DNA of 64,000 bases from Patescibacteria group bacterium (GTDB lineage Bacteria; Patescibacteriota; Minisyncoccia; JAHISW01; Tagabacteraceae), in the NCBI GenBank assembly GCA_018819015.1, contig JAHJQY010000016.1, positions 18,064 through 82,063 on the forward strand, given 5' to 3'. Positions 6,556 through 56,209 of the stretch are shown here, piece by piece (within the stretch, counting starts at the first letter, position 1; each line of letters begins with the position of its first letter). A model generated the notes under the pieces. That model was given only the letters and a program-made list of their open reading frames with translations. It was not told the origin of the DNA and searched no databases. The translations under genes and the position numbers were made by a program.

Positions 6556-6627
6556 TCTCCCCGGAGGGAATCGAACCCCCATTTAGGGCTTAGAAGGCCC
6601 CCGTTCTGTCCGTTGAACTACGGGGAG
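6556..6627 (-). tRNA. tRNA-Arg (TCT)
   Basis: Reverse complement reads CTCCCCGTAGTTCAACGGACAGAACGGGGGCCTTCTAAGCCCTAAATGGGGGTTCGATTCCCTCCGGGGAGA. Anticodon loop CTTCTAA. Confidence 0.8.
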
Positions 6628-6902
6628 GGATCGCTAATTTTAACTCCCTCTTTTAATATCCTGTCAAACGCCTGTTTCTTTTCGTCAATCCTGGAACTTG
6701 CCGCCCTAAACAAATCTTCATTTATAGCCGCTCGCTCCGTATCCTCAACGATCGCCGCTGAATCTAAATCTTTTTTCAGCGCCAAAAAGAACCAGACGTT
6801 TGAAACCAATATTACAATAAACAACAGCAAAAAAGCAACCAGGCCGACGCCCCACCAAAAATAAGGATCAAATTTTATTTTTTCAAATTTAATCATTTTC
6901 AA
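6618..6902 (-). CDS. Small membrane protein (94 aa) at the end of the pilMNO operon, a possible pilus-assembly accessory protein
   Basis: N-terminal TM helix plus a short hydrophilic tail. Its start overlaps the pilO stop. Its 3' end overlaps the tRNA-Arg 5' end by 10 nt. Confidence 0.4.
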   Translation of the reverse strand: MKMIKFEKIKFDPYFWWGVGLVAFLLLFIVILVSNVWFFLALKKDLDSAAIVEDTERAAINEDLFRAASSRIDEKKQAFDRILKEGVKISDPSP

Positions 6903-7413
6903 AACTTAAAAGCCTTAATTCCAAATCGGCCTCCCAATATTTTTCCAATTTCGGATTCTGTATATAAACTCTCTGGAAACTTAATTGATATTTGTCATTT
7001 TCCAAAAGCGAAACGAAGAAATAAATATTGGAAAAAGCGCCTTTCAAAGAAATATCGAAAACTGGTTTTTCTTCAACGCCCCCGGCGATATCGGCCCGGC
7101 GCGTTTTCAATTCAACCCCCGCCTTCTTTGCCAAATACTCAATTCTTTCAATAAAATCAACAATTGATGATTCGTTCAAAAAAGCCAATTTAATATCATT
7201 TTGTTTATCCGCCCTTAATGCCAGTTCTTTTTTAATATCTTTAATATTTTTAATCCTTTGTTCGTAAAAATAAATGCTGTTTTTTGTCTCCAAAAAAGAG
7301 TTCTTCTTAAAATTTATTTGCCTTGCCAGCAAATAGGCCAAAAAACAAAAAGCCAAATTCAAAACAACGGCCAGTATTACAGATATTAAAAATTTTTTAT
7401 TATTAATCGTCAT
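6889..7413 (-). CDS. pilO: Type IV pilus assembly protein PilO-like
   Basis: 174 aa with an N-terminal TM and a coiled-coil, sitting in the pilM-pilN-pilO position. Confidence 0.6.
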   Translation of the reverse strand: MTINNKKFLISVILAVVLNLAFCFLAYLLARQINFKKNSFLETKNSIYFYEQRIKNIKDIKKELALRADKQNDIKLAFLNESSIVDFIERIEYLAKKAGVELKTRRADIAGGVEEKPVFDISLKGAFSNIYFFVSLLENDKYQLSFQRVYIQNPKLEKYWEADLELRLLSFEND

Positions 7414-7955
7414 AATTCCAGCATTAAAGAAAAATTCACGTCTTTTTCCGTCAAAAGGCTTGATATGGGCAATTTTATATCTTTAAAATATTTTTCTGAT
7501 TTTAAATCTTCAACAAAATCCATCAATCCTTTCCTTGTGTCGGCGCGACCCTCAAGAGAGAGTTTTAGCGAAGTTTTTTTGCCCTCCAGGGCATCAAAAA
7601 GAAAAGAATTTATTTTAACTTGGCCAGGAGGCAAAACTTTCAAAACTTCCAAAATGCCGCCCGAAACCAAATAAATTTTCTTTTCATTTTCTTGAAACAC
7701 GGCCATTAAGTCATTCAAATTCTGAATTTCTGTTTCTGTTTTTGCCAAACTTTTTGTTTCGGCAAATTTTTTGACAAACAATAACTGTTCATTAATATTT
7801 CCTGAGTAATAATCCGCAAGAGAAGATAAGGCGAGCAACAAAACAATCTCCACCAGCGCCAAAAAGAAAAAACCCAGGCCCAAAACAACTATTAAGCGCC
7901 TTAAAAATTCACGATTGCGCTCTTTTTTATTTTTTAATGGCAGTAAATTTATCAT
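7410..7955 (-). CDS. pilN: Type IV pilus assembly protein PilN-like
   Basis: 181 aa with a short cytoplasmic N-terminus followed by a TM. Its reading frame overlaps both pilM and pilO. Confidence 0.6.
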   Translation of the reverse strand: MINLLPLKNKKERNREFLRRLIVVLGLGFFFLALVEIVLLLALSSLADYYSGNINEQLLFVKKFAETKSLAKTETEIQNLNDLMAVFQENEKKIYLVSGGILEVLKVLPPGQVKINSFLFDALEGKKTSLKLSLEGRADTRKGLMDFVEDLKSEKYFKDIKLPISSLLTEKDVNFSLMLEL

Positions 7956-9040
7956 ACTTCTCTCAAAAAATTTCTTAAAGCCAGGCCTATGGCTGTGGCA
8001 TACATAAAAGATTCCCGATGCTCCATCTCCGGCACATAATTTTCAAAAGAAAAGATATTTACCCAAGGATTGGCCGCCTCTACCGGCCTGCTTGATCCAT
8101 AGGACAAATAATCTGTAAGTCCCGGCATATTGGCATCGCCGCCGCAAAGAATAATTTTTTTTATTTCTTTATTTTTAAACCCTTGTTCTTCCGCGTATGT
8201 CTGCCAATAATTTGAAACTTCGGCAATCTCATCTTTTATTACCGAAACCACGGGCAAGATAACCTCAAAGTCGCCCCCTTCTTCTGTCTTCCGAAGGATT
8301 TTCTTTTTTTTTAATTCTTCAGCTTCAAAAATACTCAAATTCAATTTTTTTGCCAAAGCATTGTCAATATTCTCTCCGGCGACACTTACGGTGGAACCAA
8401 ATTTAACAACACTTTCCTCTCCAACCAAAAAACTGGTTCGCGTTTTTCCAAAATCTATTACCATAACCGCATCTTTGCAATCCGGCTCAACCACAGCCCT
8501 AAAAAGAGACTGCGTTTCCAGCTCAAAAACAACCGGAATAAAACCAGCTTTTTCAAAAATTTCAACGTAATCCTCAATAATTTCTCTGGGAAAAGCGCTA
8601 AGAGCAATTTCAAGACTGTCTTTTTTTGACGGATTTTTAACAATTTCAAAATCATAAACAATATCTGCCGGAGAAAAAGGAACAATTTCTTCCAATTGAA
8701 GTTCTAGACTTTTTCTAATCTGCGACCGCGACATCAAAGGAAGACGAACGATCTTCAAAAATGCTTTTTCTTCAGGCAAAGAAGCTATAACAAATTTATT
8801 GTTCGTCTCTTTTTCTATCAAACGAAGAGTCTCTATTAAAATTTCTTTTTGTTTCACTTCTCCTTTTTCCACCGCCCTCTTCTCAACTTTCTTGTCGCCG
8901 AATTTTTTTAATCTCAAAAAGCCGCCAACTTTTTCCATTTCTACATATTTTATGCTTCTATCGGAAATATCAATGCCAACAGCCGGCATTTTCAAATAGC
9001 GCGGCACCGGGAAAAATCTAAATAAAAAATTTCCACCCAT
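7952..9040 (-). CDS. pilM: Type IV pilus assembly protein PilM (actin-like ATPase fold)
   Basis: 'VGIDISDRSIKYVEM' at the N-terminus and 'ILCGGDANMPGLTDYLS' near the C-terminus, as in PilM/FtsA-like proteins. Confidence 0.75.
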   Translation of the reverse strand: MGGNFLFRFFPVPRYLKMPAVGIDISDRSIKYVEMEKVGGFLRLKKFGDKKVEKRAVEKGEVKQKEILIETLRLIEKETNNKFVIASLPEEKAFLKIVRLPLMSRSQIRKSLELQLEEIVPFSPADIVYDFEIVKNPSKKDSLEIALSAFPREIIEDYVEIFEKAGFIPVVFELETQSLFRAVVEPDCKDAVMVIDFGKTRTSFLVGEESVVKFGSTVSVAGENIDNALAKKLNLSIFEAEELKKKKILRKTEEGGDFEVILPVVSVIKDEIAEVSNYWQTYAEEQGFKNKEIKKIILCGGDANMPGLTDYLSYGSSRPVEAANPWVNIFSFENYVPEMEHRESFMYATAIGLALRNFLREV

Positions 9041-22361: not shown

Positions 22362-24026
22362 GTGCCTAAATTCCAAGAAGAACAACAAAAAAAGAAGCTT
22401 GAACAAATCAGAGAACGGGAAGAGGAAGATGTAACAAAAATATTGTCTGAAAAATACAAAATTCCTTATCTTGACCTCTCAGAAATGACCATAGATTTGG
22501 ATTACTTGAAAATAATTCCCGAGCAGCAGGCGCGTGAAGCGAAAATGGCCGTTTTTCAGGGGGTGGGGAAGAAAATACAGGTAGCGACGCAAAACCCAAA
22601 ACTTGAGCTCGCGCAAAATATTCTAAAAAATCTGGAGGAAAAATACCAAATCCAAACTTTTTTGGTTTCTCTGTCAAATCTTGAAAAAGCATGGAAAAAA
22701 TACAAGGAAGTTCCGGAATTCGTAGAGCTGAGAAAAGGAATAATTGACGTATCGCCGGAAAGAATAGAAGAATTTTCTTCCCAAACAACTTCTCTGGAAA
22801 AACTTAAAGAAATTTTTAACCAAAGCGTCACCAGCAAAAAAAATCGCAGTATTTCAGAACTGATAGAAATAATGCTGGGTGGAGCGCTGGCAATGGATGC
22901 TTCCGATATCCACATTGAACCGCAAGAAAACAAGGTAAAAGTGCGTTTCCGTTTTGATGGAGTGCTACACGATATTTTAGAGTTCAATCCCCAGCCATAC
23001 CAACTGCTGATTTCCAGAATAAAACTGGTCTCTGAAATGAAATTAAACATAAAAGACCAAGCGCAAGACGGGCGATTTTCAATAAAAGTCAAAGGGTTAG
23101 AAATAGAAGTGCGTTCATCAATTATTCCCAGCCCTTACGGAGAATCAATTGTCATGAGAATCCTGAACCCCAAATCAATCAATGTTCCATTGGAAGCGCT
23201 GGGAATACATCCGGACCTCCTTGAAATAATCAAGAAAGAAATCAAAAAACCTAACGGCATGATATTAACCACCGGCCCTACCGGCTCAGGGAAAACCACG
23301 AGTCTTTACACCTTCCTGAAAGAAGTAAACAGCCCTTCCGTAAAAATCATTACAATTGAAAATCCTATTGAATATCACCTGACGGGAATAACCCAGACAC
23401 AGACAAGGGGGAAAAATTACACTTTTGCCTCTGGCTTGCGCTCAATACTGCGCCAAGACCCTGATATTATCATGGTCGGCGAAATAAGGGACCTGGAAAC
23501 GGCTGAAACCGCGCTGAACGCGGCTTTAACCGGCCACCTGGTCCTATCCACTCTCCATACCAATGACGCCGCCGGCATCATCCCTAGACTAATAGAACTT
23601 GGCGCCAACCCAGCTACAATTGCTCCAGCCATTAATCTGGCCCTGGCCCAACGCTTGGTGAGAAAATTGTGCCAAAACTGCAGAAAAGAATATTTACCAG
23701 ACGAAAAAGAAATGGAAACCATAGAAAAAATCGTTAATTCTTTCCCCCAGGGCAAAAAGAAACCAAATATAAAAAATATTAAATTATTTAAAGCGGTTGG
23801 CTGCGACCAGTGCCGAAAAACTGGTTATAAGGGACGAACCGGCATTTTTGAAGGAATAATAGTTGATGACGAAACAGAAAAATTAATATTAAAAAAACCG
23901 TCACGAACGGAATTAATAGATCGAGCGAAAAAACAAGGATTTTTAAATATGCAGCAAGATGCAATTTTGAAAATAATAAATGGAGACACTTCTTTAGAAG
24001 AAGTAAATAGGGTTATAGAACTTTAA
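22362..24026 (+). CDS. Type II/IV secretion-system ATPase (GspE/PilB family) with C-terminal tetracysteine motif
   Basis: N-terminal T2SSE_N-like domain, Walker A 'TGPTGSGKTT', 'MVGEIRD', 'TLHTND' His-box, and CxxC...CxxC ('CQNCRK','CDQCRK'). Confidence 0.85.
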   Translation: MPKFQEEQQKKKLEQIREREEEDVTKILSEKYKIPYLDLSEMTIDLDYLKIIPEQQAREAKMAVFQGVGKKIQVATQNPKLELAQNILKNLEEKYQIQTFLVSLSNLEKAWKKYKEVPEFVELRKGIIDVSPERIEEFSSQTTSLEKLKEIFNQSVTSKKNRSISELIEIMLGGALAMDASDIHIEPQENKVKVRFRFDGVLHDILEFNPQPYQLLISRIKLVSEMKLNIKDQAQDGRFSIKVKGLEIEVRSSIIPSPYGESIVMRILNPKSINVPLEALGIHPDLLEIIKKEIKKPNGMILTTGPTGSGKTTSLYTFLKEVNSPSVKIITIENPIEYHLTGITQTQTRGKNYTFASGLRSILRQDPDIIMVGEIRDLETAETALNAALTGHLVLSTLHTNDAAGIIPRLIELGANPATIAPAINLALAQRLVRKLCQNCRKEYLPDEKEMETIEKIVNSFPQGKKKPNIKNIKLFKAVGCDQCRKTGYKGRTGIFEGIIVDDETEKLILKKPSRTELIDRAKKQGFLNMQQDAILKIINGDTSLEEVNRVIEL

Positions 24027-40903: not shown

Positions 40904-40909
40904 GAATTT

Positions 40910-45670: not shown

Positions 45671-45698
45671 TTGACAAGTTACTATTTTTGTGTATAAT
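45671..45698 (+). promoter_or_regulatory. Sigma-70-like promoter (TTGACA-16-TATAAT)
   Basis: ttgaca at 45671-45676 and tataat at 45693-45698, preceded by TG-rich sequence. It lies upstream of the lipoprotein gene. Confidence 0.5.
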
Positions 45699-45790
45699 TA
45701 TAGTTAGAAAATAACTAGAGTTTTTTTGACAATATTAATAATTTTGATGGCCCTAATCCCACCTACGGTGGGACGGGCGAGGAGGTTTGA

Positions 45791-46391
45791 GATGATAAAA
45801 AAAATTTCGGAAAGTTTAATTAAAGATTTTATTTGGTTTTGTTTTCTTTTTTTGGCCCTGCTTTTTGCGCTTGTAATGAGTGGCTGCGCCACCGGGCCGC
45901 TGAACCAGAAGGAGATGTCGCCGGTTTTAAGTTCGCTGGACGGCAACCCGCGAGAGGGCCTGATTATTTTGGAAGGCGAGCCGGCCGCAAGCATTGAGTT
46001 TCGCGACCAAGCCGGCTGCTTGGTGGCTCCTCAATGGAACGAGGCCGGAGCCAGTCCGCTCGCGCCGACCTATAATGGCCAACGCCGGCCGCGGTTGTAT
46101 GCCTATTCCGCGCTGGAATTTGGCTCGTACACAGTTAAGATCCGGCCGTTTTACTACACTGCTAATCTTTTTTTAAAAAGGCAGTTGGTGGAGTTGCCGG
46201 TTCAAACTTCGTCGGTTTATATTGACCGGCGGACTGACGATTATGACGGCCAGTACACCGGCCGGCACTGGGGTTGGATTTTGCGGATAAACACCGGCAA
46301 TATTCCCCGGGGACATTTTTCCGGGCCAAAAATTAATATTTCGGGTACCGGATTGCCGGGGTTGGTATTGAATAGACTTTTCGGGAGGTAA
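45791..46391 (+). CDS. Lipoprotein with a GC-rich, codon-usage-atypical mature domain
   Basis: AGGAGG 8 nt upstream of the start. The signal peptide 'LFALVMSGC' ends in a lipobox. The mature region uses ccg/ctg/ggc/cgc codons, unlike the rest of the window. Confidence 0.5.
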
Positions 46392-46482
46392 TTTAAGAGG
46401 CGTTGAGTTTTGAAAAATAAACTTGACGCCTTTTATCATTTTGGGGGAATTTGGTATAATTTGGTATAATAAAGATAATAAT

Positions 46483-47460
46483 ATGAAAGAATTTTTTACA
46501 AAAATTTTTGAAACTTTTAATTTTAAGAAGTACTGTGAAGAATACAGGGTCGGCTTATGGGAATGCCCGCCGTTTCTTTTTCTTATAATGGGTTTGTTTA
46601 TAATTTTTTCCATCCTGGCGACTTATTTTGTCAGTAGAGTTTATGTTGACCCGATGATAGTGGCACTGATTGTTATTGGCGTGACATCGGTTCTTTTTAT
46701 TCTTAGTTACGTGATTATTGGTTCTTTTGAGCGAGTGGCGTCAGTATCAAAAGAAAAATCGGAATTTATCAGTATCATGTCGCATCAATTAAGAACTCCG
46801 TTGTCGTCAATCAAGTGGCAGCTGGATTTGTTGCTGCGTAAAGGAATTGGCCTTAGTGGTGAAGCCGGCCAAAAAGCCCTTTCGGCTATTGATGAACAGA
46901 ACGAAAGAATGATCCGGTCTATCAATGACATGCTCGAAGTCAGCCGCTTGGAGGATACGGTTTTTATTTTTGATACGTCAGTTTTTTCACTAGTCGGTTT
47001 GGTTAAAGAGATTATTAAGAAGAGCGAAAATCAAGCTAAATTGATGGGCTTGGAGATAATTTTTACTCCGCCGGCTGAAGATATAGAAATTAAGGCTGAC
47101 AAGATGCGGCTCGGCGTCGTTATTTTTCATTTTTTGGAGAATTCTATTAAGTATAGCCGTAGCGGAGGGAAAATAAGTATTTTTCTTGAAAATTTGCCGG
47201 ACAAAATTCGCTTTTCGGTCAGTGATGAGGGGATAGGTATTTCTAAACAGGATTTGGATAAAATTTTTAAAAAGTTTTATCGCGGAAGCGAGTCTAGAAA
47301 GTACAAAAGTGATGGATTGGGCGTCGGCCTTTATGTGGCAAAGTCTATTATTGACTCTTTGGGCGGGCAAATAGATTTTTCCAGCATAGAAGGCAAGGGG
47401 TCTACTTTCTGGTTTACCCTGCCTGCCGGACAGGCAGGTTTGCCATTAAACAATAAATAA
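46483..47460 (+). CDS. Sensor histidine kinase (2 TM + HisKA + HATPase_c)
   Basis: 'MSHQLRTPLSSIKWQ', 'ENSIKYS', 'DEGIGIS' and 'GLGVGLY'. It is preceded by a tandem 'ttggtataat ttggtataat' extended -10 at 46451-46470. Confidence 0.8.
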   Translation: MKEFFTKIFETFNFKKYCEEYRVGLWECPPFLFLIMGLFIIFSILATYFVSRVYVDPMIVALIVIGVTSVLFILSYVIIGSFERVASVSKEKSEFISIMSHQLRTPLSSIKWQLDLLLRKGIGLSGEAGQKALSAIDEQNERMIRSINDMLEVSRLEDTVFIFDTSVFSLVGLVKEIIKKSENQAKLMGLEIIFTPPAEDIEIKADKMRLGVVIFHFLENSIKYSRSGGKISIFLENLPDKIRFSVSDEGIGISKQDLDKIFKKFYRGSESRKYKSDGLGVGLYVAKSIIDSLGGQIDFSSIEGKGSTFWFTLPAGQAGLPLNNK

Positions 47461-47470
47461 AATAAACAAT

Positions 47471-47848
47471 ATGAAGAAACGCATACTTTTTATTGAAGAC
47501 GAAGAACATTTGCAAAAACTGGCCGTTTCGGCGCTGCAAGAGGCCGGTTATGAAGTTTTGAGCGCTTACGATGGGGAAGCGGGCATTAAAATTTTGGAAG
47601 AAAGAAAGCTTGATTTGATTTTGCTGGACTTGATTCTGCCAAAAAAAGATGGTTTTGATGTGCTGGCCTATATGCGTTCAAAAGAAGAAATGAAAAATAT
47701 TCCGGTTATTGTTTTGACTAACTTGGAAGAAAAATTTGATATAGGGCGCGCCATGAAATACGGCATCCGGGCTTATTTGGTCAAGGCGAATTACAGTTTA
47801 GACGAAGTAATAAGCAAAATAAAAGAAATTCTTGGAAATGAAAGTTGA
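47471..47848 (+). CDS. Single-domain response regulator (CheY-like)
   Basis: 'ILFIEDEEHL', 'LILLDLILPKKDG' and 'KYGIRAYLVK'. Confidence 0.85.
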   Translation: MKKRILFIEDEEHLQKLAVSALQEAGYEVLSAYDGEAGIKILEERKLDLILLDLILPKKDGFDVLAYMRSKEEMKNIPVIVLTNLEEKFDIGRAMKYGIRAYLVKANYSLDEVISKIKEILGNES

Positions 47849-49592
47849 ACCGCGACAATTAAAAGTTTTTTTGCTGGACGCCGGGCTTGTTTCTGAATCT
47901 GATTTGGAAAAAATCGGCCAGGAAGCGGAAAAAGAAAAAAAAGACCTTGGAGAACTTTTAGTAAAAAAAGGAAAAATTACCAGCAATGATTTGCGCCGCT
48001 TGCAAGCGTATATTTTGGGCATTCCTTTTGTTGATTTGGAAAAGGAAAAAATTGATTTCAAAATTTTGTCTTTTATTCCGGAGCCGATAGCCAGGTCGTA
48101 CAACATAATCGCTTTTAATAAAAAAGACAGCGAGCTTGAAGTGGCCATGCTTGACCCGCAGGATTTGAAAGCAATAGATTTTATCAAGAAAAAATCCGAT
48201 TTGAAAATTTTGCCAAGACTGACCACGGATAAATCCATAAAAAACGCGCTTCAGCAGTACCACAAAAGTTTGAAGGCGGAGTTTGGCGACATTATTAAAA
48301 AAGAAAGCGGCGAATTTATAAAACCTATTATTGAAGAAGTTGCCGGTAGCGGAAGCAAGGTGGATTTGGAAAAAATGGCCGGTGAATTGCCCGTGATAAA
48401 AATTGTTGACACCTTATTGAAACACGCGATTATTCAAAGGGCCAGTGATATACACATTGAGCCGATGGAAAAAGAAGTTTTGGTCAGGTATAGGATTGAC
48501 GGTATTCTGCATGATGCCATGGATTTGCCGAAAGAAGTTGCCGATGCTGTTACTGCCAGGATAAAAGTCCTTTCCAGTTTGAAGCTGGACGAAAAAAGAC
48601 TGCCGCAGGACGGGCGCTTTAAAATAGAAACACCGGAAGAAAAAATTTCTTTTCGCGTTTCCATATTGCCTGTTTACGGAGGAGAAAAAACTGTTTTAAG
48701 AATTTTACATGAGAATGCCAAAGGTTTTTCTTTGGAAACTTTGGGTTTTCACGGCGAGCAGCTGGAAGCGGTGCATAAAGCCATAATCCGGCCGCATGGC
48801 ATGATTTTGGCGACCGGCCCGACCGGCTGCGGGAAAACCACCACTCTTTATACCGTTTTGGATATTTTGAATACTCCGGGCGTAAATATTTCCACCATTG
48901 AAGATCCGATTGAATACCAGATTCCGCGGATAAACCAGACACAGGTTAAGCCGGAAATCGGATTTTCTTTTTCCAGCGGTTTGAGGTCTTTGGTTCGTCA
49001 GGACCCGGATATTATTATGGTCGGCGAAATCAGGGATTCCGAGACGGCCTCTTTGGCGGTTAATGCCGCCCTAACCGGCCATTTGGTGCTGTCAACTTTG
49101 CATACTAATTCCGCCTCCGGCGCTTTTCCTCGCTTGCTGGATATGGGCATAGAGCCGTTTCTTTTGGTTTCAACCTTGAACCTTGTTATTGCTCAGCGTT
49201 TGGTCAGGCGCTTGTGCGAAGGAAAAGAGCCGTATAAATTAACTAAGCAAAATTTGGAAGATTTGGGGGAGGAGGTGGATTTGAAAAGAGTTTTGGAAAT
49301 TTTGAAAAAAACAAAAACGATAAAGCCAGATCAAGATTGGGACAGCATAGTTTTTTACAAACCAAAGTCGACGCCGGATTCTCCTGATGGTTACAAGGGC
49401 AGGATTGGCATTCACGAGGCTTTAGTTGTCACCGAGACTATCAAGGAACTCATGATGAAAAATTCTACCGCCGATGAAGTGGAAGCACGGGCGAAAAAGG
49501 AAGGCATGCAGACGATGTTTGAAGACGGAATTTTGAAAGCGGCGCAAGGACTGATCTCGCTGGAAGAAGTTTTCAGAGTGACGCGGGAGTAA
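47832..49592 (+). CDS. pilB: Type IV pilus assembly ATPase PilB/GspE-like (no C-terminal CxxC pairs)
   Basis: T2SSE_N domain, Walker A 'TGPTGCGKTT', 'MVGEIRD' and 'TLHTNS'. The C-terminal zinc-binding cysteines seen in the 22362 paralog are absent. Confidence 0.85.
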   Translation: MEMKVEPRQLKVFLLDAGLVSESDLEKIGQEAEKEKKDLGELLVKKGKITSNDLRRLQAYILGIPFVDLEKEKIDFKILSFIPEPIARSYNIIAFNKKDSELEVAMLDPQDLKAIDFIKKKSDLKILPRLTTDKSIKNALQQYHKSLKAEFGDIIKKESGEFIKPIIEEVAGSGSKVDLEKMAGELPVIKIVDTLLKHAIIQRASDIHIEPMEKEVLVRYRIDGILHDAMDLPKEVADAVTARIKVLSSLKLDEKRLPQDGRFKIETPEEKISFRVSILPVYGGEKTVLRILHENAKGFSLETLGFHGEQLEAVHKAIIRPHGMILATGPTGCGKTTTLYTVLDILNTPGVNISTIEDPIEYQIPRINQTQVKPEIGFSFSSGLRSLVRQDPDIIMVGEIRDSETASLAVNAALTGHLVLSTLHTNSASGAFPRLLDMGIEPFLLVSTLNLVIAQRLVRRLCEGKEPYKLTKQNLEDLGEEVDLKRVLEILKKTKTIKPDQDWDSIVFYKPKSTPDSPDGYKGRIGIHEALVVTETIKELMMKNSTADEVEARAKKEGMQTMFEDGILKAAQGLISLEEVFRVTRE

Positions 49593-49606
49593 TTTCTTTT
49601 TTAGTA

Positions 49607-49634
49607 TCTGTGGGAGGTCGGACCTCCCACAGAT
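49607..49634 (+). terminator. Perfect 13-bp stem hairpin downstream of pilB
   Basis: tctgtgggaggtc-g-gacctcccacaga. Confidence 0.6.
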
Positions 49635-49836
49635 TATTTACTATATAGTTTAAAGCGGTCGTCACTAGTTATATAGTGTTTTTTTCACAAGGTACAAAAA
49701 AGGCCGACCGGACCATTTTGTACCTTTTTTGAATAACCCTTTTTTGAATAACCCTTTGTAATTTGACAGGGTAGTATAAATATGCTATCTTGTTTTTAGA
49801 ATTTGGCATTGAAAATCGAAAAAAGGAGAGAAATAA

Positions 49837-50030
49837 TGTTATCAAATACAAATAATGTTTTTGGCAGGATGGTGTTAATTGTTATTTTCCCAGCCTGTTT
49901 CTATTTAAGTATAAAGTTTCTGGGTTTTCTATTTGAGGTGGGCTGGAATTCTGTTCTTCTAAAAAAACTTTTTGTTGTTGCAATTTCTTCTATGGTTTAT
50001 GGGGTTATTGCGAGTAAAATGATTAAATAA
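49837..50030 (+). CDS. Small hydrophobic protein (64-75 aa) between pilB and pilC
   Basis: Two predicted TM helices. It is followed by its own terminator. Confidence 0.3.
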
Positions 50031-50053
50031 GATAAATATTTTTATTCTAAAAA

Positions 50054-50077
50054 CTCGGAGAACGAGAATTCTCCGAG
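50054..50077 (+). terminator. Rho-independent terminator
   Basis: ctcggagaa-cgagaa-ttctccgag followed by ttttttc. Confidence 0.65.
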
Positions 50078-50123
50078 TTTTTTCATTTTTAGCAAATTGT
50101 TTTTGTGATATTATTTAAATAAG

Positions 50124-51335
50124 ATGCCGAGTTTTAAATTTAAGGCGAAAAATTTGGAAGGAAAGGAAATTAATGGCACGCGCGAAGCGGAGGACAAATT
50201 CGCTTTGGCGCGCGCTTTGAGGCAGGAAAATTACATCCTCATTGATTTTCAGGAAGAGGGCAAAAAAAGAAAATGGAATATTTTTTCTTTTAGTTTTGAT
50301 GGAGTGCCTTTTGCCGAGAAAATGATTTTTACTCATAATCTGGCAGTCATGGTGGGCGCCGGCATTTCTTTAACCAGGGCGCTGGGTATTTTGATAGAAC
50401 AGTCAAAGAATGTAAAATTCAAAAAAATTATTTTAAAAATTTCCAATGATATTACGAAAGGGCGGAGTTTAAGCGACAGTTTGTCCGATCATAAAAAAAT
50501 TTTTTCCGCTCTGTATGTTTCCATGGTCAAGGCGGGCGAAAAGAGCGGTAAGCTTCACGAGTCTCTGAATTTGCTGGCCGACCAGATGGAAAAGGAGATG
50601 CGCATAAAAAGAAAAATAAGAGGCGCCATGGTTTACCCGCTCATTGTGTTAATTACCATGGTTGGCATCGCTATTTTAATGCTGATTTATGTTGTTCCCA
50701 GCCTGGTTTCCACCTTTGGGGAATTGGGCATTCAATTGCCTTTGAGTACAAGAATCATAATCTGGCTTAGCCGGTCTTTGATTTCCAGTTCTCTTTTGAT
50801 TCTTTCTGTTTTTGTTGTTTTGGTAATTTCTTTTATTTATCTTTTGCGCTTGGCAGCCGTCAGAAAATTTTTAGACGGCGCTTGGCTGCGTCTTCCTATA
50901 ATTTCTCCATTGATACAGAAAATTAATTCGGCCAGAACGGCGCGGACATTATCTTCTCTTATTGATTCCGGTGTTGAGATTTTGGAGGCGATGACCATAA
51001 CCTCGGAGGTTGTTCAAAACGTGCATTATAAAAATGTTTTGATGGAATCTAAAAAAGATATACAAAAAGGCGAGGCAATTTCCGTTTCAATTAGAAAGTC
51101 AAAGGGAGTTTTTCCTTTGCTTTTCGGGGAAATGGTGGCCGTTGGAGAAGAAACAGGAAAGCTTTCAGAAATGCTTTTGCAGCTGGCAGTTTTTTATGAG
51201 GAAGAAGTGAACGAGGCGACAAAAGATATGGCAACCGTGATAGAACCGGTATTAATGGTTGTTATCGGCGCCGCCGTGGGTTTTTTCGCGATTTCAATGG
51301 TGAAGCCGATGTATTCAATGCTTGACGCTATTTAA
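50124..51335 (+). CDS. pilC: Type IV pilus platform protein PilC/GspF
   Basis: 'MPSFKFKAKNLEGKEINGT' and two T2SSF domains. Confidence 0.85.
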   Translation: MPSFKFKAKNLEGKEINGTREAEDKFALARALRQENYILIDFQEEGKKRKWNIFSFSFDGVPFAEKMIFTHNLAVMVGAGISLTRALGILIEQSKNVKFKKIILKISNDITKGRSLSDSLSDHKKIFSALYVSMVKAGEKSGKLHESLNLLADQMEKEMRIKRKIRGAMVYPLIVLITMVGIAILMLIYVVPSLVSTFGELGIQLPLSTRIIIWLSRSLISSSLLILSVFVVLVISFIYLLRLAAVRKFLDGAWLRLPIISPLIQKINSARTARTLSSLIDSGVEILEAMTITSEVVQNVHYKNVLMESKKDIQKGEAISVSIRKSKGVFPLLFGEMVAVGEETGKLSEMLLQLAVFYEEEVNEATKDMATVIEPVLMVVIGAAVGFFAISMVKPMYSMLDAI

Positions 51336-51352
51336 TTAATGCAAAGCGCAAA

Positions 51353-52669
51353 ATGCAAAACTTAAACAAGGGAATTTCTTTGGTGGAGGCATTGGTTGGC
51401 ATTGCTTTGATGCTGGTTGTTTTTGTCAGCTTTGTGGGTTTTTTGAATGCGGGGATAAAAATTGTCGGTGTTTCAAGCGCCAAGGTTGGGGCCGTGGCGC
51501 TGGCCAATGAGCAAATGGAAAAAATAAGAAATCTGCCTTACGCCGAGGTTGGCACAGTCGGCGGCATTCCCTCCGGCAATGTGCCGCAAAATATTTCTTC
51601 TGTTTTGAACGGCATAAATTATACGATTCGCACTTTGATACAATATGTTGACGACCCGGCTGACGGCGAAGGAGCCGAAGATGAGAATGGCATAACTGCG
51701 GATTATAAAAGAGTAAAAGTGGAAGTTGGCTGGGAGGGAAAAAATTTTACAAATCCGCTAGTTTTTGTTTCCGATGTCATGCCAAAAGGCATGGAAACAA
51801 ATGCCGGCGACGGAACTTTGAAGATAAATGTTTTTGATGCCGCTATTTCTCCTGTTGTTTCAGCCGATGTTCATATTGAAAATAGCGAACTTGTTCCGTC
51901 TGTTTCCGTTGATGTTTTTACCAATTCACAAGGTAAAGTAGTCTTTCCTGGCGCGCCAACAGCCGCTTCTTACAAGATTACTGTAACTAAAACTGGACAT
52001 AGTTCAGCTCAAACTTATGATGTTACACCTGAAAATCCCAATCCTCAGCCGGGACACTTGACTATTTTGGAAGGAGAAACTACTGAAGCCAGTTTTTCTA
52101 TAGATTTAGTTTCTACAAAAACTGTTAAAACTTTTGAAGCTACCACCACGCTTCCGTTAATTCCTTTTCACATGAGGGGAGAAAAGATTATTGGCAAAGA
52201 TATAGACAATGAACCTATTTATAAATATTCCCATGATTTATTGAGTGGCGGCGACGGGGCAAAAGAGATATTTAATCTTGAGTGGGATAATTATTTGTTG
52301 ACAATAGATGGGCCATCCACCGGTTATGATATTTCGGAAATATGTCCGTTTCAACCATTTAATATTCTGCCTGATACGAATAATACAACAGATATAATTT
52401 TGTTTCCGCATGTAACTAATACATTTTTGGTGTCAGTGAAAGACGGAAGCGGTAATTTTATTCCCGGCGCTTCAGCGCGGTTGTATAAAACCGGTTATGA
52501 TAAAACAGTGGACTCGTCGGCTACTTGCGGCCAATCGTTTTTTTCGCCGCTTTCAGCCTCGGCTAGTTATACACTTGAAGTGACAAAAACCGGTTATCAG
52601 AATTTTAGTTTGTCCAACATTAGTATTAGCGGACAATCAAATATGGAAATAAATCTTTCGCCGCTTTAA
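51353..52669 (+). CDS. Large prepilin-type protein (type IV pilin-like, 438 aa)
   Basis: Class III signal 'NKG|ISLVEALVGIALMLVV' with Glu at +5. Confidence 0.75.
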   Translation: MQNLNKGISLVEALVGIALMLVVFVSFVGFLNAGIKIVGVSSAKVGAVALANEQMEKIRNLPYAEVGTVGGIPSGNVPQNISSVLNGINYTIRTLIQYVDDPADGEGAEDENGITADYKRVKVEVGWEGKNFTNPLVFVSDVMPKGMETNAGDGTLKINVFDAAISPVVSADVHIENSELVPSVSVDVFTNSQGKVVFPGAPTAASYKITVTKTGHSSAQTYDVTPENPNPQPGHLTILEGETTEASFSIDLVSTKTVKTFEATTTLPLIPFHMRGEKIIGKDIDNEPIYKYSHDLLSGGDGAKEIFNLEWDNYLLTIDGPSTGYDISEICPFQPFNILPDTNNTTDIILFPHVTNTFLVSVKDGSGNFIPGASARLYKTGYDKTVDSSATCGQSFFSPLSASASYTLEVTKTGYQNFSLSNISISGQSNMEINLSPL

Positions 52670-52681
52670 TTTTATATTTTT

Positions 52682-53263
52682 ATGAACAAAGGCTTAACAA
52701 TAGTAGAAACATTGGTTTATATAGCGGTTTTCACTTTGGCCATGGGGGCTGTCTCCGGTTTCATCATCTATTTTTACAGAGGAAATTTTTATATTATTCA
52801 GCAGGCTTATGCCGTGAATAGCGCCAGGAGGGGGATTGAAACCATGACGCGCGAGATAAGGGAAATTACTTATTCCGATTCCGGCGCTTATCCGGTGGTG
52901 GCTGCCCAAGAACAAAGTTTTATTTTTTACAGCGATATTGATAAAGATGAGAATGTTGAAAAAGTGCGGTATTTTTTGGAAGGAACTGATTTTAAAAAGA
53001 GCGAGATTCAAGCCGTCGGCGACCCTCCCGTTTATCAAGACGGAGAAGAAATAATTTCGGTTATTTCAGACAATGTTCGCAATGGAGTTCAGTTGGTTTT
53101 TACTTATTATAACGCTTCAAGTACGGAAGTCGCTGATTTGAGTTGGATTACGGACATCAGATTGGTAAAAGTTAATTTGGTAGTGAATGTTGAACCAAAT
53201 AGGGCGCCGGGGGAATTTACTTTGACATCCAGCGCCCAGATTAGAAACCTTAAAGAGGAATGA
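52682..53263 (+). CDS. Prepilin-type minor pilin-like protein
   Basis: 'NKG|LTIVETLVYIAVFTL'. Confidence 0.75.
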   Translation: MNKGLTIVETLVYIAVFTLAMGAVSGFIIYFYRGNFYIIQQAYAVNSARRGIETMTREIREITYSDSGAYPVVAAQEQSFIFYSDIDKDENVEKVRYFLEGTDFKKSEIQAVGDPPVYQDGEEIISVISDNVRNGVQLVFTYYNASSTEVADLSWITDIRLVKVNLVVNVEPNRAPGEFTLTSSAQIRNLKEE

Positions 53264-54669
53264 GCAAATTTCATCATTTTAATAACAGGGGTAGTATTGT
53301 TCTTATGGTTCTGGTGTTCAGCGGCATTTTTATTATTTTGTTCAGCGGAACTTTCGGATTTATTTTTACGCAGCACAAATTTCAAGCGGAAAAAGCGGAA
53401 AGAGAGAAAGCTTTGGAAATTGCGGAGGCGGGCGCGAATTATTATAAATGGTTTTTATCCCATTATCCGGATGATTTAACCGACGGCACGGGGGAGCCGG
53501 GTCCTTATGAGCATGAATATTATGATCCAGAAGGCGGCGCTATTGGTAAATTCAGTTTGGAGATTAGCGGAGTGCAATCCTGCGGTTTTTATTCGGCTAT
53601 TGATATAACATCTACTGGCTGGACCCATAAAGAACCGTCTTTAAAAAGAGTGGTTAAGGTAAAATATGCCAGACCTTCTGTGGCGGAATACGCTTATATA
53701 CTTAATGATAATGTTTGGGCGGGCGCGGACAGAGAAATAAAAGGAAAATATCATTCCAATGGCGGAATAAGAATGGACGGTGAAAATGATTCCTTGGTGA
53801 CCAGCGCCAAAACGACATGGCAGTGCACTTCGTCTTTCGGTTGTTCTAGCCCTTACGAGGTAAAGCCGGGAGTGTTTGGCGACGGCGAAGGAGGAGAGCG
53901 AGGTTTGTGGGAATTTCCGGTTCAATCAATTGATTTTGCCGGCTTGTCTTTGGATCTAGTTCAGATGAAAAATTTGGCTCAAGCCGCCGGCGTTTATTTT
54001 GCTCCGCAAGGCAAAGGATATCGCGTAGTTTTCAAAAATAACGGCACTTTTGACGCGTATGCCGTTAATTCGGTTAACGCTGTTTATGGTTATAGCTTGG
54101 AAGAGGGTTACCATTGGGATTATCATGTGATTCAGAGCGAAACTTTTTTGCAGAATTCTGTTATTCCTGGAAGTTGTAGTTTAATTTTTGTGGAAGATGA
54201 TCTTTGGTTGGAGGGGGAAGTGAACGGAAAGGTTTCAATTATTGCCGCTGACCTTATTACTCCCAATGTGGATCCGGATATAATTTTGGACGGCAATATA
54301 ACGTATACTTCTTCCGATGGCTCTGATGGTTTGTTGGCGGTGGCGGAAAGAAATGTTTTGATACCGCTTTATTCGCCCGACCAGATGGAGCTGAAAGGAA
54401 TTTTCATAGCGCAAAAAGGGCACTTCGGAAGAAACCATTATTCTTGTTCGTCGTATAGTCCTTGGTGTAAAAGGAATAAGTTAGAGATGGTTGGTTCCGT
54501 GGTCAGTAATGGCCGAGTCGGCACCAAATGGACATCTGGCGGAACATTTGTTTCAGGATATGAAAACAGGGAAAATTCTTATGATAGGAAATTGATGACT
54601 TCTCCTCCGCCAATGACGCCTTTTTCTGACGACGAGTTCCGGTTTGTTAAATGGGAGGAAGTAAACTAA
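53260..54669 (+). CDS. Large pilin-like protein with PilX-type N-terminus (possible tip or adhesin subunit)
   Basis: 'NRG|SIVLMVLVFSGIFIIL' hydrophobic N-terminus without Glu5, followed by a 440-aa domain. Confidence 0.5.
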   Translation: MSKFHHFNNRGSIVLMVLVFSGIFIILFSGTFGFIFTQHKFQAEKAEREKALEIAEAGANYYKWFLSHYPDDLTDGTGEPGPYEHEYYDPEGGAIGKFSLEISGVQSCGFYSAIDITSTGWTHKEPSLKRVVKVKYARPSVAEYAYILNDNVWAGADREIKGKYHSNGGIRMDGENDSLVTSAKTTWQCTSSFGCSSPYEVKPGVFGDGEGGERGLWEFPVQSIDFAGLSLDLVQMKNLAQAAGVYFAPQGKGYRVVFKNNGTFDAYAVNSVNAVYGYSLEEGYHWDYHVIQSETFLQNSVIPGSCSLIFVEDDLWLEGEVNGKVSIIAADLITPNVDPDIILDGNITYTSSDGSDGLLAVAERNVLIPLYSPDQMELKGIFIAQKGHFGRNHYSCSSYSPWCKRNKLEMVGSVVSNGRVGTKWTSGGTFVSGYENRENSYDRKLMTSPPPMTPFSDDEFRFVKWEEVN

Positions 54670-55402: not shown

Positions 55403-56209
55403 TTATTTTGTTAAATTAAAATATTCATCCAAGCTTTCGAAGTCGCCAAAGACCTTTTTTTGTTCAGGGTTTTGCGTTTCCAAAGCTTTCTTTTTGGAAA
55501 TGTATTGTTCTTTTTGTGCTTCTAGCATTTTGGCGGGCGAGGTTAAATTATTTTTTCTGCCGAAATGCGTTGGGCAAATACTAATGACTTCAGTGAAAGC
55601 GGATTTTTCATTGCCTATCAGTAAATTTTTCTTTATGCCCTTGATTAAATTTTTTGGAAAAACGATCGGATATCGGGAAACAAATTTTGCTTCGGCGCCC
55701 AGAGCGAGCTTGATAATATCAAAAGGTTTTTCAATACTGCCTTCCGGTGTCACCGGTGTTATGGTTTTTTGCGGCGTTGTCGCTCCGGGTTGTCCGCCGG
55801 TCATTCCGTAAACATAATTGTTTAGGCAGAAAATACTCATCGGCAGGTTTCTTCTTAAGGTATGGATTAGGTGGTTGCCGCCGATGGTTGCTAGGTCGCC
55901 ATCTCCGCTGATGACCACAATTTTACTGGCAGGTTTGGCTAGTTTGACTCCTGTGGCGAAAGCCAAGGCGCGGCCGTGCGTGGTGTGAAGCGTTTCGGCC
56001 AGAAAATAAGGATTGGGAATCCAGGCGGCGCAACCAATGCCGGAGATAAAAATAGTTTTATGAAAATCAAATTTTCCTTCTTTTTCCAATTCTTCAGCGG
56101 CTTTTAAAAAGCAGTTGGTGAAAATTCCATAACCGCAGCCGGCGCAGAATGTTGTTTTTTCAATTCTTAAATATTTTTTTCTCAGAGAATATATATTTGT
56201 CATTACCAT
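55403..56209 (-). CDS. porB: 2-oxoacid:ferredoxin oxidoreductase beta subunit (TPP-binding)
   Basis: 'FCAGCGYG', 'ISGIGCAAW' and 'GDGDLATIGGNHL'. Confidence 0.8.
   Translation of the reverse strand: MVMTNIYSLRKKYLRIEKTTFCAGCGYGIFTNCFLKAAEELEKEGKFDFHKTIFISGIGCAAWIPNPYFLAETLHTTHGRALAFATGVKLAKPASKIVVISGDGDLATIGGNHLIHTLRRNLPMSIFCLNNYVYGMTGGQPGATTPQKTITPVTPEGSIEKPFDIIKLALGAEAKFVSRYPIVFPKNLIKGIKKNLLIGNEKSAFTEVISICPTHFGRKNNLTSPAKMLEAQKEQYISKKKALETQNPEQKKVFGDFESLDEYFNLTK

What the first reader, a model, noticed from the sequence alone, without database searches (positions are those of the whole stretch)
46451..54669. Type IV pilus locus headed by its own two-component system, with two divergent PilB paralogs in the window
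The locus reads sensor kinase, CheY-like regulator, PilB, a small terminator-bounded membrane ORF, PilC, and then three prepilin-type genes. Two of the prepilin genes encode very large proteins (438 and 469 aa). This PilB lacks the tetracysteine Zn motif. The separate GspE/PilB at 22362-24026 retains CxxC...CxxC. pilMNO sit elsewhere (6618-9040), next to tRNAs. No pilD or pilT is in the window. The sensor kinase is preceded by a duplicated extended -10 (ttggtataat x2) ending only 13 nt before the start codon, which suggests a near-leaderless transcript.
Basis: partly seen in the sequence, partly recalled or inferred. Interest (0 to 1): 0.5.

Follow-up and report, generated by a model that had tools for sequence, protein, structure and literature searches.

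The report
CPR type IV pilus locus
This is a real type IV pilus gene cluster from an ultra-small Patescibacteria (CPR) bacterium; its core five genes recur across that group, and its largest "pilin" is predicted to fold like ComZ, the DNA-binding pilus tip protein of Thermus.

Summary
At 46451-54669 the + strand encodes a 2-TM histidine kinase, a REC-only response regulator, a PilB-type ATPase, an orphan 64-aa membrane ORF between terminators, PilC and three pilin-like genes.

- **Paralogues:** A second PilB paralogue (38% identity) keeps CxxC...CxxC. The locus PilB does not.
- **Absent genes:** No pilD or pilT lies in the window.
- **Conserved cassette:** PilB-PilC-438-193-469 recurs in about 50 distinct Patescibacteria loci. 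Its PilB has lost the zinc cysteines clade-wide but keeps all catalytic boxes.
- **Regulators:** HK-RR heads the cassette in only seven distinct loci. There the RR gene abuts or overlaps pilB.
- **Promoter:** The near-leaderless promoter is real, but leaderless starts are this genome's norm.
- **Neighbourhood:** ComEC/RecJ proximity failed a housekeeping-gene control.

Verdict: a new variant of a known kind, of moderate interest. A DNA-receptor role for the tip is inferred, not shown.

The parts
46451..46470 (+). Tandem duplicated extended -10 element (TTGGTATAAT x2), the promoter of the HK-RR-pilB unit
   Evidence: Read directly. Both are exact matches. Orthologous loci carry a single TGnTATAAT ending 6-7 nt before the HK ATG. 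Function as a promoter is inferred.
46483..47460 (+). Sensor histidine kinase, 325 aa, with two TM helices, a roughly 6-residue outer loop, no HAMP and no sensor domain
   Evidence: HisKA 58.1 bits and HATPase_c 95.3 bits. The start codon and the conserved N-terminal motif come from the alignment with seven orthologues. TM segments come from a hydropathy scan.
47471..47848 (+). Single-domain (REC-only, CheY-like) response regulator, 125 aa
   Evidence: Response_reg 82.5 bits covering residues 5-116 of 125. The acidic pocket, the Thr and the Lys are conserved in the orthologue alignment. There is no output domain.
47838..49592 (+). Cassette PilB: a PilB/GspE-type extension ATPase with no zinc-binding tetracysteine
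   Evidence: T2SSE 418 bits and MshEN 57 bits. TIGR02538 scores 552.8 bits, below its 675.65 cut-off. Solved PilB 410 bits against PilT 127 bits. C2 and C3 are absent. Walker A, Asp box, Walker B and His box are conserved, and the start at 47838 is set by the orthologues.
49606..49634 (+). Terminator-like hairpin after pilB, with 14-nt perfect arms
   Evidence: A second hairpin plus a T-run at about 49691-49730 was read.
49836..50030 (+). Orphan 64-aa ORF with two TM helices, its own GGAG Shine-Dalgarno site and flanking terminators
   Evidence: Sequence. It is one of only two genes in the window with an SD. The only hit among 5.8 billion protein clusters is itself. TM helices. Whether it is expressed or has a role is unknown.
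50049..50082 (+). Terminator-like hairpin (14-nt perfect arms plus a T-run) after the small ORF
50106..50114 (+). Extended -10 (TGaTATTAT) ending 9 nt before the pilC ATG; inferred leaderless-type promoter of the pilC-pilin unit
   Evidence: Read and listed. Function is inferred.
50124..51335 (+). PilC/GspF platform protein, 403 aa
   Evidence: T2SSF 190.6 bits in two stretches. GspF 337.6 bits and PilC models 289-300 bits, all below their equivalog cut-offs.
51353..52669 (+). Modular minor pilin, 438 aa: class III N-terminus (NKG|ISLVE), a GspI-like pilin head, and three CnaB/transthyretin-like beta-sandwich domains
52682..53263 (+). Small minor pilin, 193 aa, with a canonical class III N-terminus (NKG|LTIVE); in the GspJ/PilA2 position
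   Evidence: N_methyl matches 26 of 26 family members. Only the N-terminal helix matches solved pilins at profile level. The fold of the globular part was not determined.
53260..54669 (+). ComZ/GspK-like cap pilin, 469 aa: hydrophobic N-terminal helix without Glu5, a pilin domain, and an inserted beta-solenoid
22362..24026 (+). Second PilB-type ATPase paralogue, 554 aa, which keeps CxxC...CxxC; no pilC or pilin gene next to it
   Evidence: T2SSE 391.5 bits. 38% identity to the cassette PilB. Cys437/440/481/484. Solved PilB 343 bits against PilT 119 bits. Its neighbours are TsaE, an unassigned 386-aa protein and RuvB.
6618..9040 (-). pilM (7952-9040), pilN (7410-7955), a pilO-like gene (6889-7413) and a 94-aa single-TM gene (6618-6902), displaced about 40 kb from the cassette
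   Evidence: PilM_2 135.6 bits and PilN 23.9 bits. The pilO-like gene gives a weak hit to the gene that follows pilN in L001 (E 3.6e-4). In L001, L031, L046 and L059, pilM and pilN directly follow the cassette; the pilO-like gene was also detected in those four and the small single-TM gene in L001, L031 and L046 only.

Best explanation
The locus is the motor-plus-tip module of a Patescibacteria type IV pilus. PilB (an extension ATPase that needs no zinc site) and PilC (the platform) assemble a filament. The filament's first-incorporated, distal end is a three-protein complex encoded immediately downstream.
- A GspI-like pilin carries a stalk of three CnaB/transthyretin-like domains (438 aa).
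- A small canonical minor pilin sits in the GspJ/PilA2 position (193 aa).
- A Glu5-less cap protein has a beta-solenoid inserted into a GspK-like pilin fold, as in Thermus ComZ (469 aa).

The cap displays the solenoid as the distal receptor. DNA is the leading candidate ligand, with a conserved surface polymer of host cells second.

In this lineage the module is co-transcribed from a leaderless-type promoter with a membrane-anchored, sensor-domain-less histidine kinase and a CheY-like regulator. Having no DNA-binding output, the regulator most likely acts after translation on the motor or platform.

An orphan small-ORF insertion with two terminators has split the ancestral pilB-pilC operon into separate units, and pilC gained its own leaderless-type promoter.

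Shown here: gene identities, cassette conservation, loss of the cysteines, predicted folds, N-terminal types, and gene overlaps. Inferred: the tip complex, the ligand, the RR's target, and promoter use.
For: - Cassette PilB-PilC-438-193-469 is present in nearly all of about 50 distinct loci from Paceibacterota-type MAGs.
- The cassette PilB is PilB-like, not PilT-like, and all four catalytic boxes are conserved.
- The 469-aa family is as conserved as PilC across loci, judged from bit scores per residue and 56% mean column identity. That argues for a conserved ligand or structural role.
- HK-RR-pilB linkage is seen in L001, L005, L006, L007, L009, L031 and L046. The RR stop overlaps the pilB ATG, and no terminator-like site was found between the RR gene and pilB.
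- Orthologous HK genes have TGnTATAAT ending 6-7 nt before the ATG.
- In most relatives pilB and pilC abut. In the window they are separated by terminators.
Against: - The fold of the 193-aa protein's globular part is undetermined, so the 'J' assignment is positional only.
- No complex prediction could be run.
- ComEC and RecJ lie 2-7 kb downstream in 24 and 29 of 36 loci, but tpiA, pgk, HIT and RNase H are conserved there just as often. This is general synteny, not specific linkage. The window itself has no ComEC or RecJ.
- HK-RR heads the cassette in only seven distinct loci.
- In Saccharibacteria, T4P are essential independently of comEC (PMC10633639), which favours an adhesion role.
- The major pilin, PilD and PilT are not in the window.
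Confidence: 0.6

Rival explanations
1. The pilus is a host-attachment organelle. The tip complex would be an adhesin that binds the surface of the host cell on which this presumably episymbiotic bacterium lives. DNA uptake would play no part.
For: - The three C-terminal modules of the 438-aa pilin match the stalk domains of Gram-positive adhesive pili and MSCRAMM B-repeats.
- In Saccharibacteria, large minor pilins that lack PilD sites (PilX1, PilX2) are proposed tip proteins. PilX2 and PilB2 mutants bind hosts poorly (PMC11623550).
- T4P are essential there even without comEC (PMC10633639).
- The ComEC/RecJ neighbourhood failed its control.
Against: - The best structural match of the cap is a DNA-binding competence pilin.
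- The cap and stalk pilins are far better conserved (56% and 50% mean column identity) than the host-binding pilins of Saccharibacteria. Those are reported to share only 10-25% coverage across phyla.
- No lectin, vWA or propeller module was found.
Confidence: 0.25
2. The two-component system is merely a neighbour and does not control the pilus. It regulates something else and happens to sit upstream of pilB in one sub-lineage.
For: HK-RR is absent upstream of the cassette in the large majority of loci. The RR has no output domain, so no target can be read from the sequence. A second two-component system lies elsewhere in the window.
Against: - The RR stop codon overlaps the pilB start, and the closest relatives show the same overlap or close abutment.
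- The HK-RR-pilB order persists in loci whose large pilin is only 44-69% identical (best tblastn segment) to the window's.
- A leaderless-type promoter precedes the HK in the window and in the seven orthologous loci, and no terminator-like site was found between the RR gene and pilB in the window.
Confidence: 0.15
3. The cassette is a type II secretion-like pseudopilus that exports proteins, rather than an extended pilus.
For: The platform protein scores highest against GspF (337.6 bits). The ATPase scores nearly as well against GspE (531 bits) as against PilB (553 bits). The minor pilins resemble the GspI and GspK tip proteins.
Against: - No secretin and no GspC, GspL or GspM was found in the window or in the cassette loci. 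pilM and pilN are present instead, together with a pilO-like gene, and they follow the cassette directly in L001, L031, L046 and L059.
- Patescibacteria are generally held to lack an outer membrane (general knowledge).
- Thermus minor pilins of a true pilus also resemble T2SS pseudopilins (PMC6561018).
Confidence: 0.07

Closest known systems
Thermus thermophilus competence-pilus locus pilA1-pilA2-pilA3-comZ (ComZ structure 6qvi; PMC6561018)
   Same: A large pilin-like protein with a GspK-like pilin domain and an ice-binding-type beta-solenoid insertion. It has no predicted PilD site and is encoded next to small minor pilins.
   Different: No detectable sequence similarity. The protein is shorter: 469 aa against the 518-residue solved ComZ chain. 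DNA binding is untested. The organism is not known to have an outer membrane or PilQ. The cassette also holds the motor and platform genes and a CnaB-stalk pilin that, from general knowledge, the Thermus locus lacks.
GspI-GspJ-GspK / XcpV-W-X tip complex of type II secretion (3ci0, 5vtm), and its T4aP counterpart PilV-PilW-PilX
   Different: The cap's insertion is a beta-solenoid rather than GspK's alpha-helical domain. The I-like protein carries three extra beta-sandwich domains. The J-like fold is not shown. No GspH/FimU-like fourth member lies in the cassette.
Saccharibacteria (TM7x) T4P-1 and T4P-2 systems (PMC11623550)
   Same: Patescibacteria with two PilB paralogues and dispersed T4P loci. 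Large minor pilins without PilD signals are proposed as tip proteins.
   Different: The TM7x loci are described with PilT, PilD, RecA/RecX and a beta-propeller PilX2. A text search of that paper found no mention of a two-component system or response regulator. Whether the TM7x PilB proteins keep the cysteines was not examined here. No TM7x sequence was compared here.
Modular minor pilins of Streptococcus sanguinis T4P (PilB with a vWA module; the PilA-PilC complex)
   Different: The added modules here are CnaB/transthyretin-like sandwiches and a beta-solenoid, not vWA or lectin modules.
Zn-less GspE: XpsE of Xanthomonas and Xylella (cited in PMC5061722)
   Same: A GspE/PilB-family extension-type ATPase that lacks the CxxCx(21-40)CxxC zinc site.
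   Different: XpsE is a T2SS ATPase in Proteobacteria. Here a whole clade of T4P PilB orthologues has lost C2 and C3 while keeping the loop, which is 9 residues longer. A Cys4-bearing paralogue coexists in the same genome.
PilS-PilR and Pil-Chp (PilG/PilH) regulation of T4P
   Same: A histidine kinase and response regulator genetically tied to pilus genes, with a CheY-like single-domain regulator as in PilG and PilH.
   Different: PilR is an NtrC-type DNA-binding activator and PilS has six TM helices (general knowledge). PilG and PilH are fed by the histidine kinase ChpA, a CheA-type kinase (general knowledge). Here a classical HisKA kinase with two TM helices pairs with a REC-only protein whose gene overlaps pilB.

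Membership tests
PilB/GspE-type extension ATPase (cassette PilB, 47838-49592) | T2SSE core with Walker A, Asp box, Walker B and His box | tested here: met
   T2SSE 418 bits. GPTGCGKT, IEDPIE, DPDIIMVGE and STLHTN are present and conserved in the orthologues.
PilB/GspE-type extension ATPase (cassette PilB, 47838-49592) | N-terminal T2SSE_N/MshEN domain, and a closer match to PilB than to PilT | tested here: met
   MshEN 57.2 bits. Solved PilB 410 bits against PilT 127 bits.
PilB/GspE-type extension ATPase (cassette PilB, 47838-49592) | C-terminal zinc-binding tetracysteine CxxCx(21-40)CxxC | tested here: not met
   Only C1 (Cys462) remains. C2 and C3 are absent in every cassette orthologue except L059. 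PMC5061722 describes the motif as conserved and essential.
PilB/GspE-type extension ATPase (cassette PilB, 47838-49592) | Reaches the NCBIfam equivalog cut-off for PilB (TIGR02538) | tested here: not met
   552.8 bits against a cut-off of 675.65. The second paralogue scores 481.7 bits.
Type IVa pilus machinery | PilC platform and PilM/PilN/PilO alignment proteins | tested here: met
   T2SSF in two stretches. PilM_2 135.6 bits and PilN 23.9 bits. The pilO-like gene is assigned by position and a weak hit.
Type IVa pilus machinery | Prepilin peptidase PilD, retraction ATPase PilT, and a major pilin | tested here: not met
   None found among the 61 ORFs of at least 110 aa that were scanned. No further G|xxxxE N-terminus was found. 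They may lie outside the 64 kb window.
Type IV (class III signal) prepilins | Short basic leader, Gly at -1, hydrophobic +1, Glu (or Asp) at +5, then a hydrophobic helix | tested here: met
   The 438-aa protein has NKG|ISLVE and the 193-aa protein has NKG|LTIVE. N_methyl matches 26 of 26 members of the 193-aa family. It is not met by the 469-aa protein (NRG|SIVLM).
ComZ-like tip pilin (469-aa protein) | A GspK-like pilin domain with a triangular, ice-binding-type beta-solenoid inserted before the last strand | tested here: met
ComZ-like tip pilin (469-aa protein) | N-terminal hydrophobic helix with no predicted PilD cleavage site | tested here: met
   No acidic +5 residue was seen in any family N-terminus that could be read. 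PilX_N matches 8 of 39 members.
ComZ-like tip pilin (469-aa protein) | Detectable sequence homology to ComZ | tested here: not met
   The family profile does not retrieve ComZ from PDB sequences even at E <= 10.
ComZ-like tip pilin (469-aa protein) | Binds DNA and the adjacent minor pilin (PilA2) | not testable with these tools
   This needs biochemistry or a multimer prediction. Only the adjacency to a small minor pilin is seen.
GspI-J-K-type tip heterotrimer | Three minor pilins with I-, J- and K-type folds that assemble through their N-terminal helices | tested here: inconclusive
   The I-like fold and K-like fold are supported by models. The J-like fold is not determined. Assembly was not tested.
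PilS-PilR two-component system | An NtrC-type RR with sigma-54 activator and DNA-binding domains, and a multi-TM PilS | tested here: not met
   The RR is 125 aa and REC-only. The HK has two TM helices.
c-di-GMP-binding MshEN domain | Tandem RLGxxLLxxGLLxxxxLxxxLxxQ motifs | tested here: not met
   NF053729 scores 29.8 bits against a cut-off of 38. By inspection the Arg and Gln positions are substituted in both half-motifs of the window's PilB.

The most novel reading that the evidence does not exclude
The five-gene cassette would be the dedicated DNA-capture pilus of Paceibacterota-type Patescibacteria. A ComZ-like beta-solenoid cap acts as a tip DNA receptor, held on a CnaB-stalk pilin and driven by a PilB clade that has dispensed with the otherwise essential zinc site. 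In one sub-lineage, extension would be gated after translation by an intramembrane-sensing kinase and a CheY-like protein acting directly on the motor. That would identify the long-sought entry point by which these nucleotide-auxotrophic ultra-small bacteria acquire DNA.
Probability: 0.25. Interest if true: 0.75.

Novelty: new variant of a known kind. Interest (0 to 1): 0.5.

Why it matters
- **Background:** Patescibacteria make up a large share of bacterial diversity. They depend on other cells and are thought to rely on type IV pili for attachment and for DNA or nucleotide acquisition. Their pilus components outside Saccharibacteria are essentially uncharacterised.
- **Concrete target:** This analysis defines a recurrent cassette of motor, platform and three tip-type pilins. 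The cap protein's family holds about 1,500 clusters at 50% identity. That gives a testable candidate for the pilus-tip receptor, namely the ComZ-like cap.
- **Zinc site:** The locus offers a natural experiment on the zinc site of PilB ATPases, because a Cys-less paralogue and a Cys4 paralogue sit in one genome.
- **Regulation:** It also shows a minimal kinase/CheY-like pair whose gene overlaps the motor gene. That is a simple system for studying post-translational control of pilus extension.

Tried and rejected
- Exact-sequence look-ups of the window's PilB and of P0001 found no contig on record. Context therefore came from relatives.
- The 37-sequence pilin alignment was too diverse for the locus scan. 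A 10-sequence alignment worked.
- The 341-aa ORF after the second ATPase was a pilT candidate. It is RuvB.
- I took ComEC/RecJ proximity as support for competence until a control was run. In that control tpiA, pgk, HIT, RNase H and nusA were conserved in the same neighbourhood at similar rates. I therefore rejected it as specific evidence.
- The small membrane ORFs found between pilB and pilC in eight other loci show no cross-lineage similarity. The window's ORF is an orphan. No family is claimed.
- Profile searches against PDB sequences did not link the 469-aa family to ComZ. They did not place the 193-aa globular domain either.
- The afdb50 fold library was unavailable.
- c-di-GMP binding by the PilB N-terminus is not claimed, because the match is sub-threshold.
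- An apparent split of VirB4 is two overlapping genes (a TrsD/TraC_N-like gene plus the ATPase), not a frameshift.
- The 11-nt inverted and direct repeats around the small ORF are too short to call an insertion scar.

Full report
**Source and setting.** The window comes from a Patescibacteria (CPR) genome. The 438- and 469-aa proteins are 100% identical to NCBI entries named "Patescibacteria group bacterium". Relatives come from Wildermuth-, Nealson-, Portnoy-, Kaiser-, Wolfe- and Campbellbacteria-type MAGs. The replication origin lies at about 30-34 kb. There dnaN, dnaA, rnpA, yidC and jag sit together, GC falls to 0.26-0.29, and the GC skew changes sign. The locus lies about 14 kb beyond the origin, on the strand with positive GC skew.

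**Observation check.**
- Pfam and NCBIfam confirm a HisKA/HATPase_c kinase, a REC-only regulator, a T2SSE+MshEN ATPase, a T2SSF platform protein and a second T2SSE ATPase at 22362-24026.
- The small ORF is bounded by two perfect hairpins with 14-nt arms.
- The cassette PilB has only Cys333 and Cys462. The paralogue has CxxC at 437 and at 481.
- pilM and pilN lie at 7410-9040(-). They are followed by a pilO-like gene and a 94-aa single-TM gene that reaches tRNA-Arg.
- No Peptidase_A24 or PilT was found among the 61 ORFs of at least 110 aa that I scanned. The 341-aa ORF next to the second ATPase is RuvB.
- TTGGTATAAT is duplicated in tandem at 46451-46470.

Four corrections apply. The ATG at 46483 lies 12 nt after the second -10 box. 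pilB starts at the ATG at 47838. The small ORF starts at 49836. Only two of the three pilin genes carry a G|xxxxE N-terminus.

**Two PilB paralogues.**
- The two ATPases are 38% identical.
- Each scores about three times higher against solved PilB than against PilT: 410 against 127 bits, and 343 against 119 bits.
- Each carries an N-terminal MshEN/T2SSE_N domain.

Both fall below the NCBIfam PilB equivalog cut-off, as expected for divergent CPR proteins.

**A conserved cassette.** The 438-aa pilin has 593 scored homologues. A locus scan of one genome per species returned 57 loci. In nearly all of them the order is PilB, PilC, 438-type, 193-type, 469-type.
- HK and RR lie directly upstream only in L001, L005, L006, L007, L009, L031 and L046.
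- pilM and pilN follow directly downstream in L001, L031, L046 and L059. In the window they are displaced about 40 kb.
- No orthologue of the second PilB lies within 10 kb of any cassette.

**The zinc site is lost across the clade.** All cassette PilB orthologues lack C2 and C3. C1 is usually kept and C4 is kept in about half. The loop between them is retained and is 9 residues longer than in the paralogue. Only the outlier L059 keeps CxxC...CxxC. Walker A, Asp box, Walker B and His box are conserved throughout, so these look like active enzymes. The literature describes the motif as conserved and essential in GspE/PilB ATPases, with XpsE of Xanthomonas and Xylella as the known exceptions (PMC5061722, PMC11656802).

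**The three pilin-like proteins.**
- *N-termini* fall into three family-wide types. The 438 family has [KR]G|[FM][ST]L[IV][E/D]. The 193 family has the canonical G|FTL[IV]E, and N_methyl matches 26 of 26 members. The 469 family has RG followed by a hydrophobic run with no acidic +5 residue, then a conserved IAEAGxxYYRWxLAH motif. PilX_N matches 8 of 39 members of the 469 family.

The ComZ paper describes exactly this architecture: a GspK-like pilin domain with an ice-binding-like solenoid inserted before the last strand. ComZ has no predicted PilD site, binds the adjacent minor pilin PilA2, and binds DNA. Its authors propose a tip location on steric grounds (PMC6561018).

The trio therefore reads I-like, small pilin, K/ComZ-like, in the gene order of gspI-J-K. 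The J-type fold of the 193-aa protein could not be established, because only its N-terminal helix matches solved pilins. The ComZ relationship is structural only. No paper in the library mentions ComZ together with CPR.

**What the tip binds.** This remains inferred.
- *For DNA:* the ComZ match. CPR also have ComEC-dependent competence (PMC10633639). The cap family is as well conserved as PilC across loci (bit scores; 56% mean column identity), which suits a universal ligand.
- *For host adhesion:* the stalk-type domains. In Saccharibacteria, T4P mediate host binding and are essential independently of comEC.
- *Neighbourhood:* ComEC and RecJ lie 2-7 kb downstream in 24 and 29 of 36 loci. My control showed that tpiA, pgk, HIT, RNase H and nusA are conserved nearby at the same rates. 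This is block synteny, not specific linkage. The window has neither ComEC nor RecJ.

**The two-component system.**
- The HK orthologues all start at the position of the window's ATG at 46483. They share the N-terminal motif FxxxxxCxxYxxxLWxCPxFLFLxMG.
- Two TM helices follow, separated by about six residues, and run straight into the H-box. There is no HAMP and no extracytoplasmic domain. This is the architecture of an intramembrane-sensing kinase.
- The RR is REC-only and keeps the acidic pocket, the Thr and the Lys.
- The RR stop (47848) overlaps the pilB ATG (47838).

With no output domain, the RR must act through protein contacts. The co-translated motor is the most economical target, but this is inference. 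[quoted passage not shown]

**Promoters and operon structure.**
- Orthologous HK genes carry a single TGnTATAAT ending 6-7 nt before the ATG (L005, L006, L031).
- Only 2 of the 62 gene starts examined in the window have a Shine-Dalgarno motif. Many operon-leading genes have a -10 box ending 6-11 nt before the start: pilM 6, dnaA 6, the gene at 36147-37121 7, PilB2 7, pilC 9.

Leaderless initiation is therefore the organism's default. The locus-specific feature is only the 10-bp tandem duplication and the slightly longer 12-nt spacing.

In most relatives pilB and pilC abut. In the window a 531-bp insert carries two terminator-like hairpins, an orphan 64-aa two-TM ORF and a third hairpin. The orphan ORF has one of the window's only two SD sites, and its only database hit is itself. 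pilC then has its own TGaTATTAT ending 9 nt before its ATG. The locus is thus probably three transcription units: HK-RR-pilB, the small ORF, and pilC with the three pilin genes. Eight other lineages also have small multi-TM ORFs in a pilB-pilC gap, but these share no sequence similarity. I leave this unexplained.

**Verdict.**
- The locus is an instance of a widespread Patescibacteria T4P cassette that, as far as the searchable literature shows, has not been described.
- It differs from canonical T4aP systems in three ways: a Cys-less PilB clade, a ComZ-like cap, and a CnaB-stalk GspI-like pilin.
- In this sub-lineage it is also headed by a minimal kinase/CheY-like pair.
- I rate it a new variant of a known kind, with interest 0.5.

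Noticed in passing
window 34509-45600 (- strand): A T4SS-like block sits directly beside the T4P locus and next to dnaN/dnaA. It contains a T4SS_pilin gene (35731-36147), a VirB4-type ATPase (37476-39359) preceded by an overlapping 221-aa TraC_N/TrsD-like gene (39280-39945), PrgI/VirB3 (39954-40367), TrbL/VirB6 (40910-42721), a 642-aa CHB_HEX_C/Fn3_assoc/PKD surface protein (42711-44639) and a TSP3-repeat protein (44629-45600). Origin-proximal T4SS clusters are a reported CPR pattern (bioRxiv 10.1101/2025.01.22.634366).
   Followed up: partly
window 30000-34500: Probable replication origin. dnaN, dnaA, rnpA, yidC and jag cluster here, GC drops to 0.26-0.29, and the GC skew changes from negative to positive.
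   Followed up: partly
whole window: Shine-Dalgarno motifs are almost absent: only 2 of 62 gene starts have one. Operon-leading genes typically have a -10 box ending 6-11 nt before the start codon. This suggests that leaderless mRNAs are the norm in this organism.
   Followed up: partly
window 14397-16864 (- strand): A second two-component system: a PAS-domain histidine kinase (15206-16864) and a response regulator made of two tandem REC domains with no output domain (14397-15185). A tandem-REC regulator was recently reported to control PilB/PilT activity in Xanthomonas (PMC13507683, title and abstract only).
   Followed up: no
window 22362-26304 and 12757-13335: The Cys4-bearing second PilB has no pilC or pilin neighbour. 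It sits directly upstream of ruvB-yebC-ruvC, and ruvA lies about 9 kb away on the other strand.
   Followed up: no
window 49723-50125: Short repeats surround the orphan small ORF. There is a 15-nt tandem repeat (49723-49752), a perfect 11-nt inverted repeat flanking the ORF (49792-49802 and 50044-50054), and an 11-nt direct repeat TTAAATAAGAT (50023-50033 and 50115-50125) whose second copy abuts the pilC ATG. This could be an insertion scar or chance.
   Followed up: partly
L020, L026, L028, L032, L037, L038, L056, L058 (pilB-pilC gaps): Eight other lineages carry a small ORF (74-161 aa, + strand, one to four predicted TM helices) in a 370-600 bp gap between pilB and pilC. Sequence similarity is seen only between close pairs. 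This may be a positional analogue of the window's small ORF.
   Followed up: partly
window 45671-46391: A lipoprotein-like ORF (lipobox LVMSGC, no Pfam match) lies behind a perfect 12/12 sigma-70 consensus promoter (TTGACA-16-TATAAT, 45671-45698). A long hairpin at 46394-46435 follows it, just before the HK promoter. No homologue was seen in the related loci.
   Followed up: no
L004-L060, homologues of the 438-aa pilin: In most members of the 438-aa pilin family the +5 residue of the mature N-terminus is Asp rather than the canonical Glu. The window's protein has Glu.
   Followed up: no
L059: This outlier locus is labelled Gammaproteobacteria but has CPR-like cassette synteny. Its PilB keeps the full CxxC...CxxC motif and its 438-type pilin is about 934 aa. 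It is a possible ancestral-state representative for the loss of the cysteines.
   Followed up: no
window 59610-62394 (- strand): NiFe-hydrogenase large and small subunit-like genes lie next to an FAD/NAD-binding iron-sulfur oxidoreductase. Upstream at 55403-57552 are ORFs whose translations look like a 4Fe-4S 2-oxoacid oxidoreductase, but these were not scanned.
   Followed up: no
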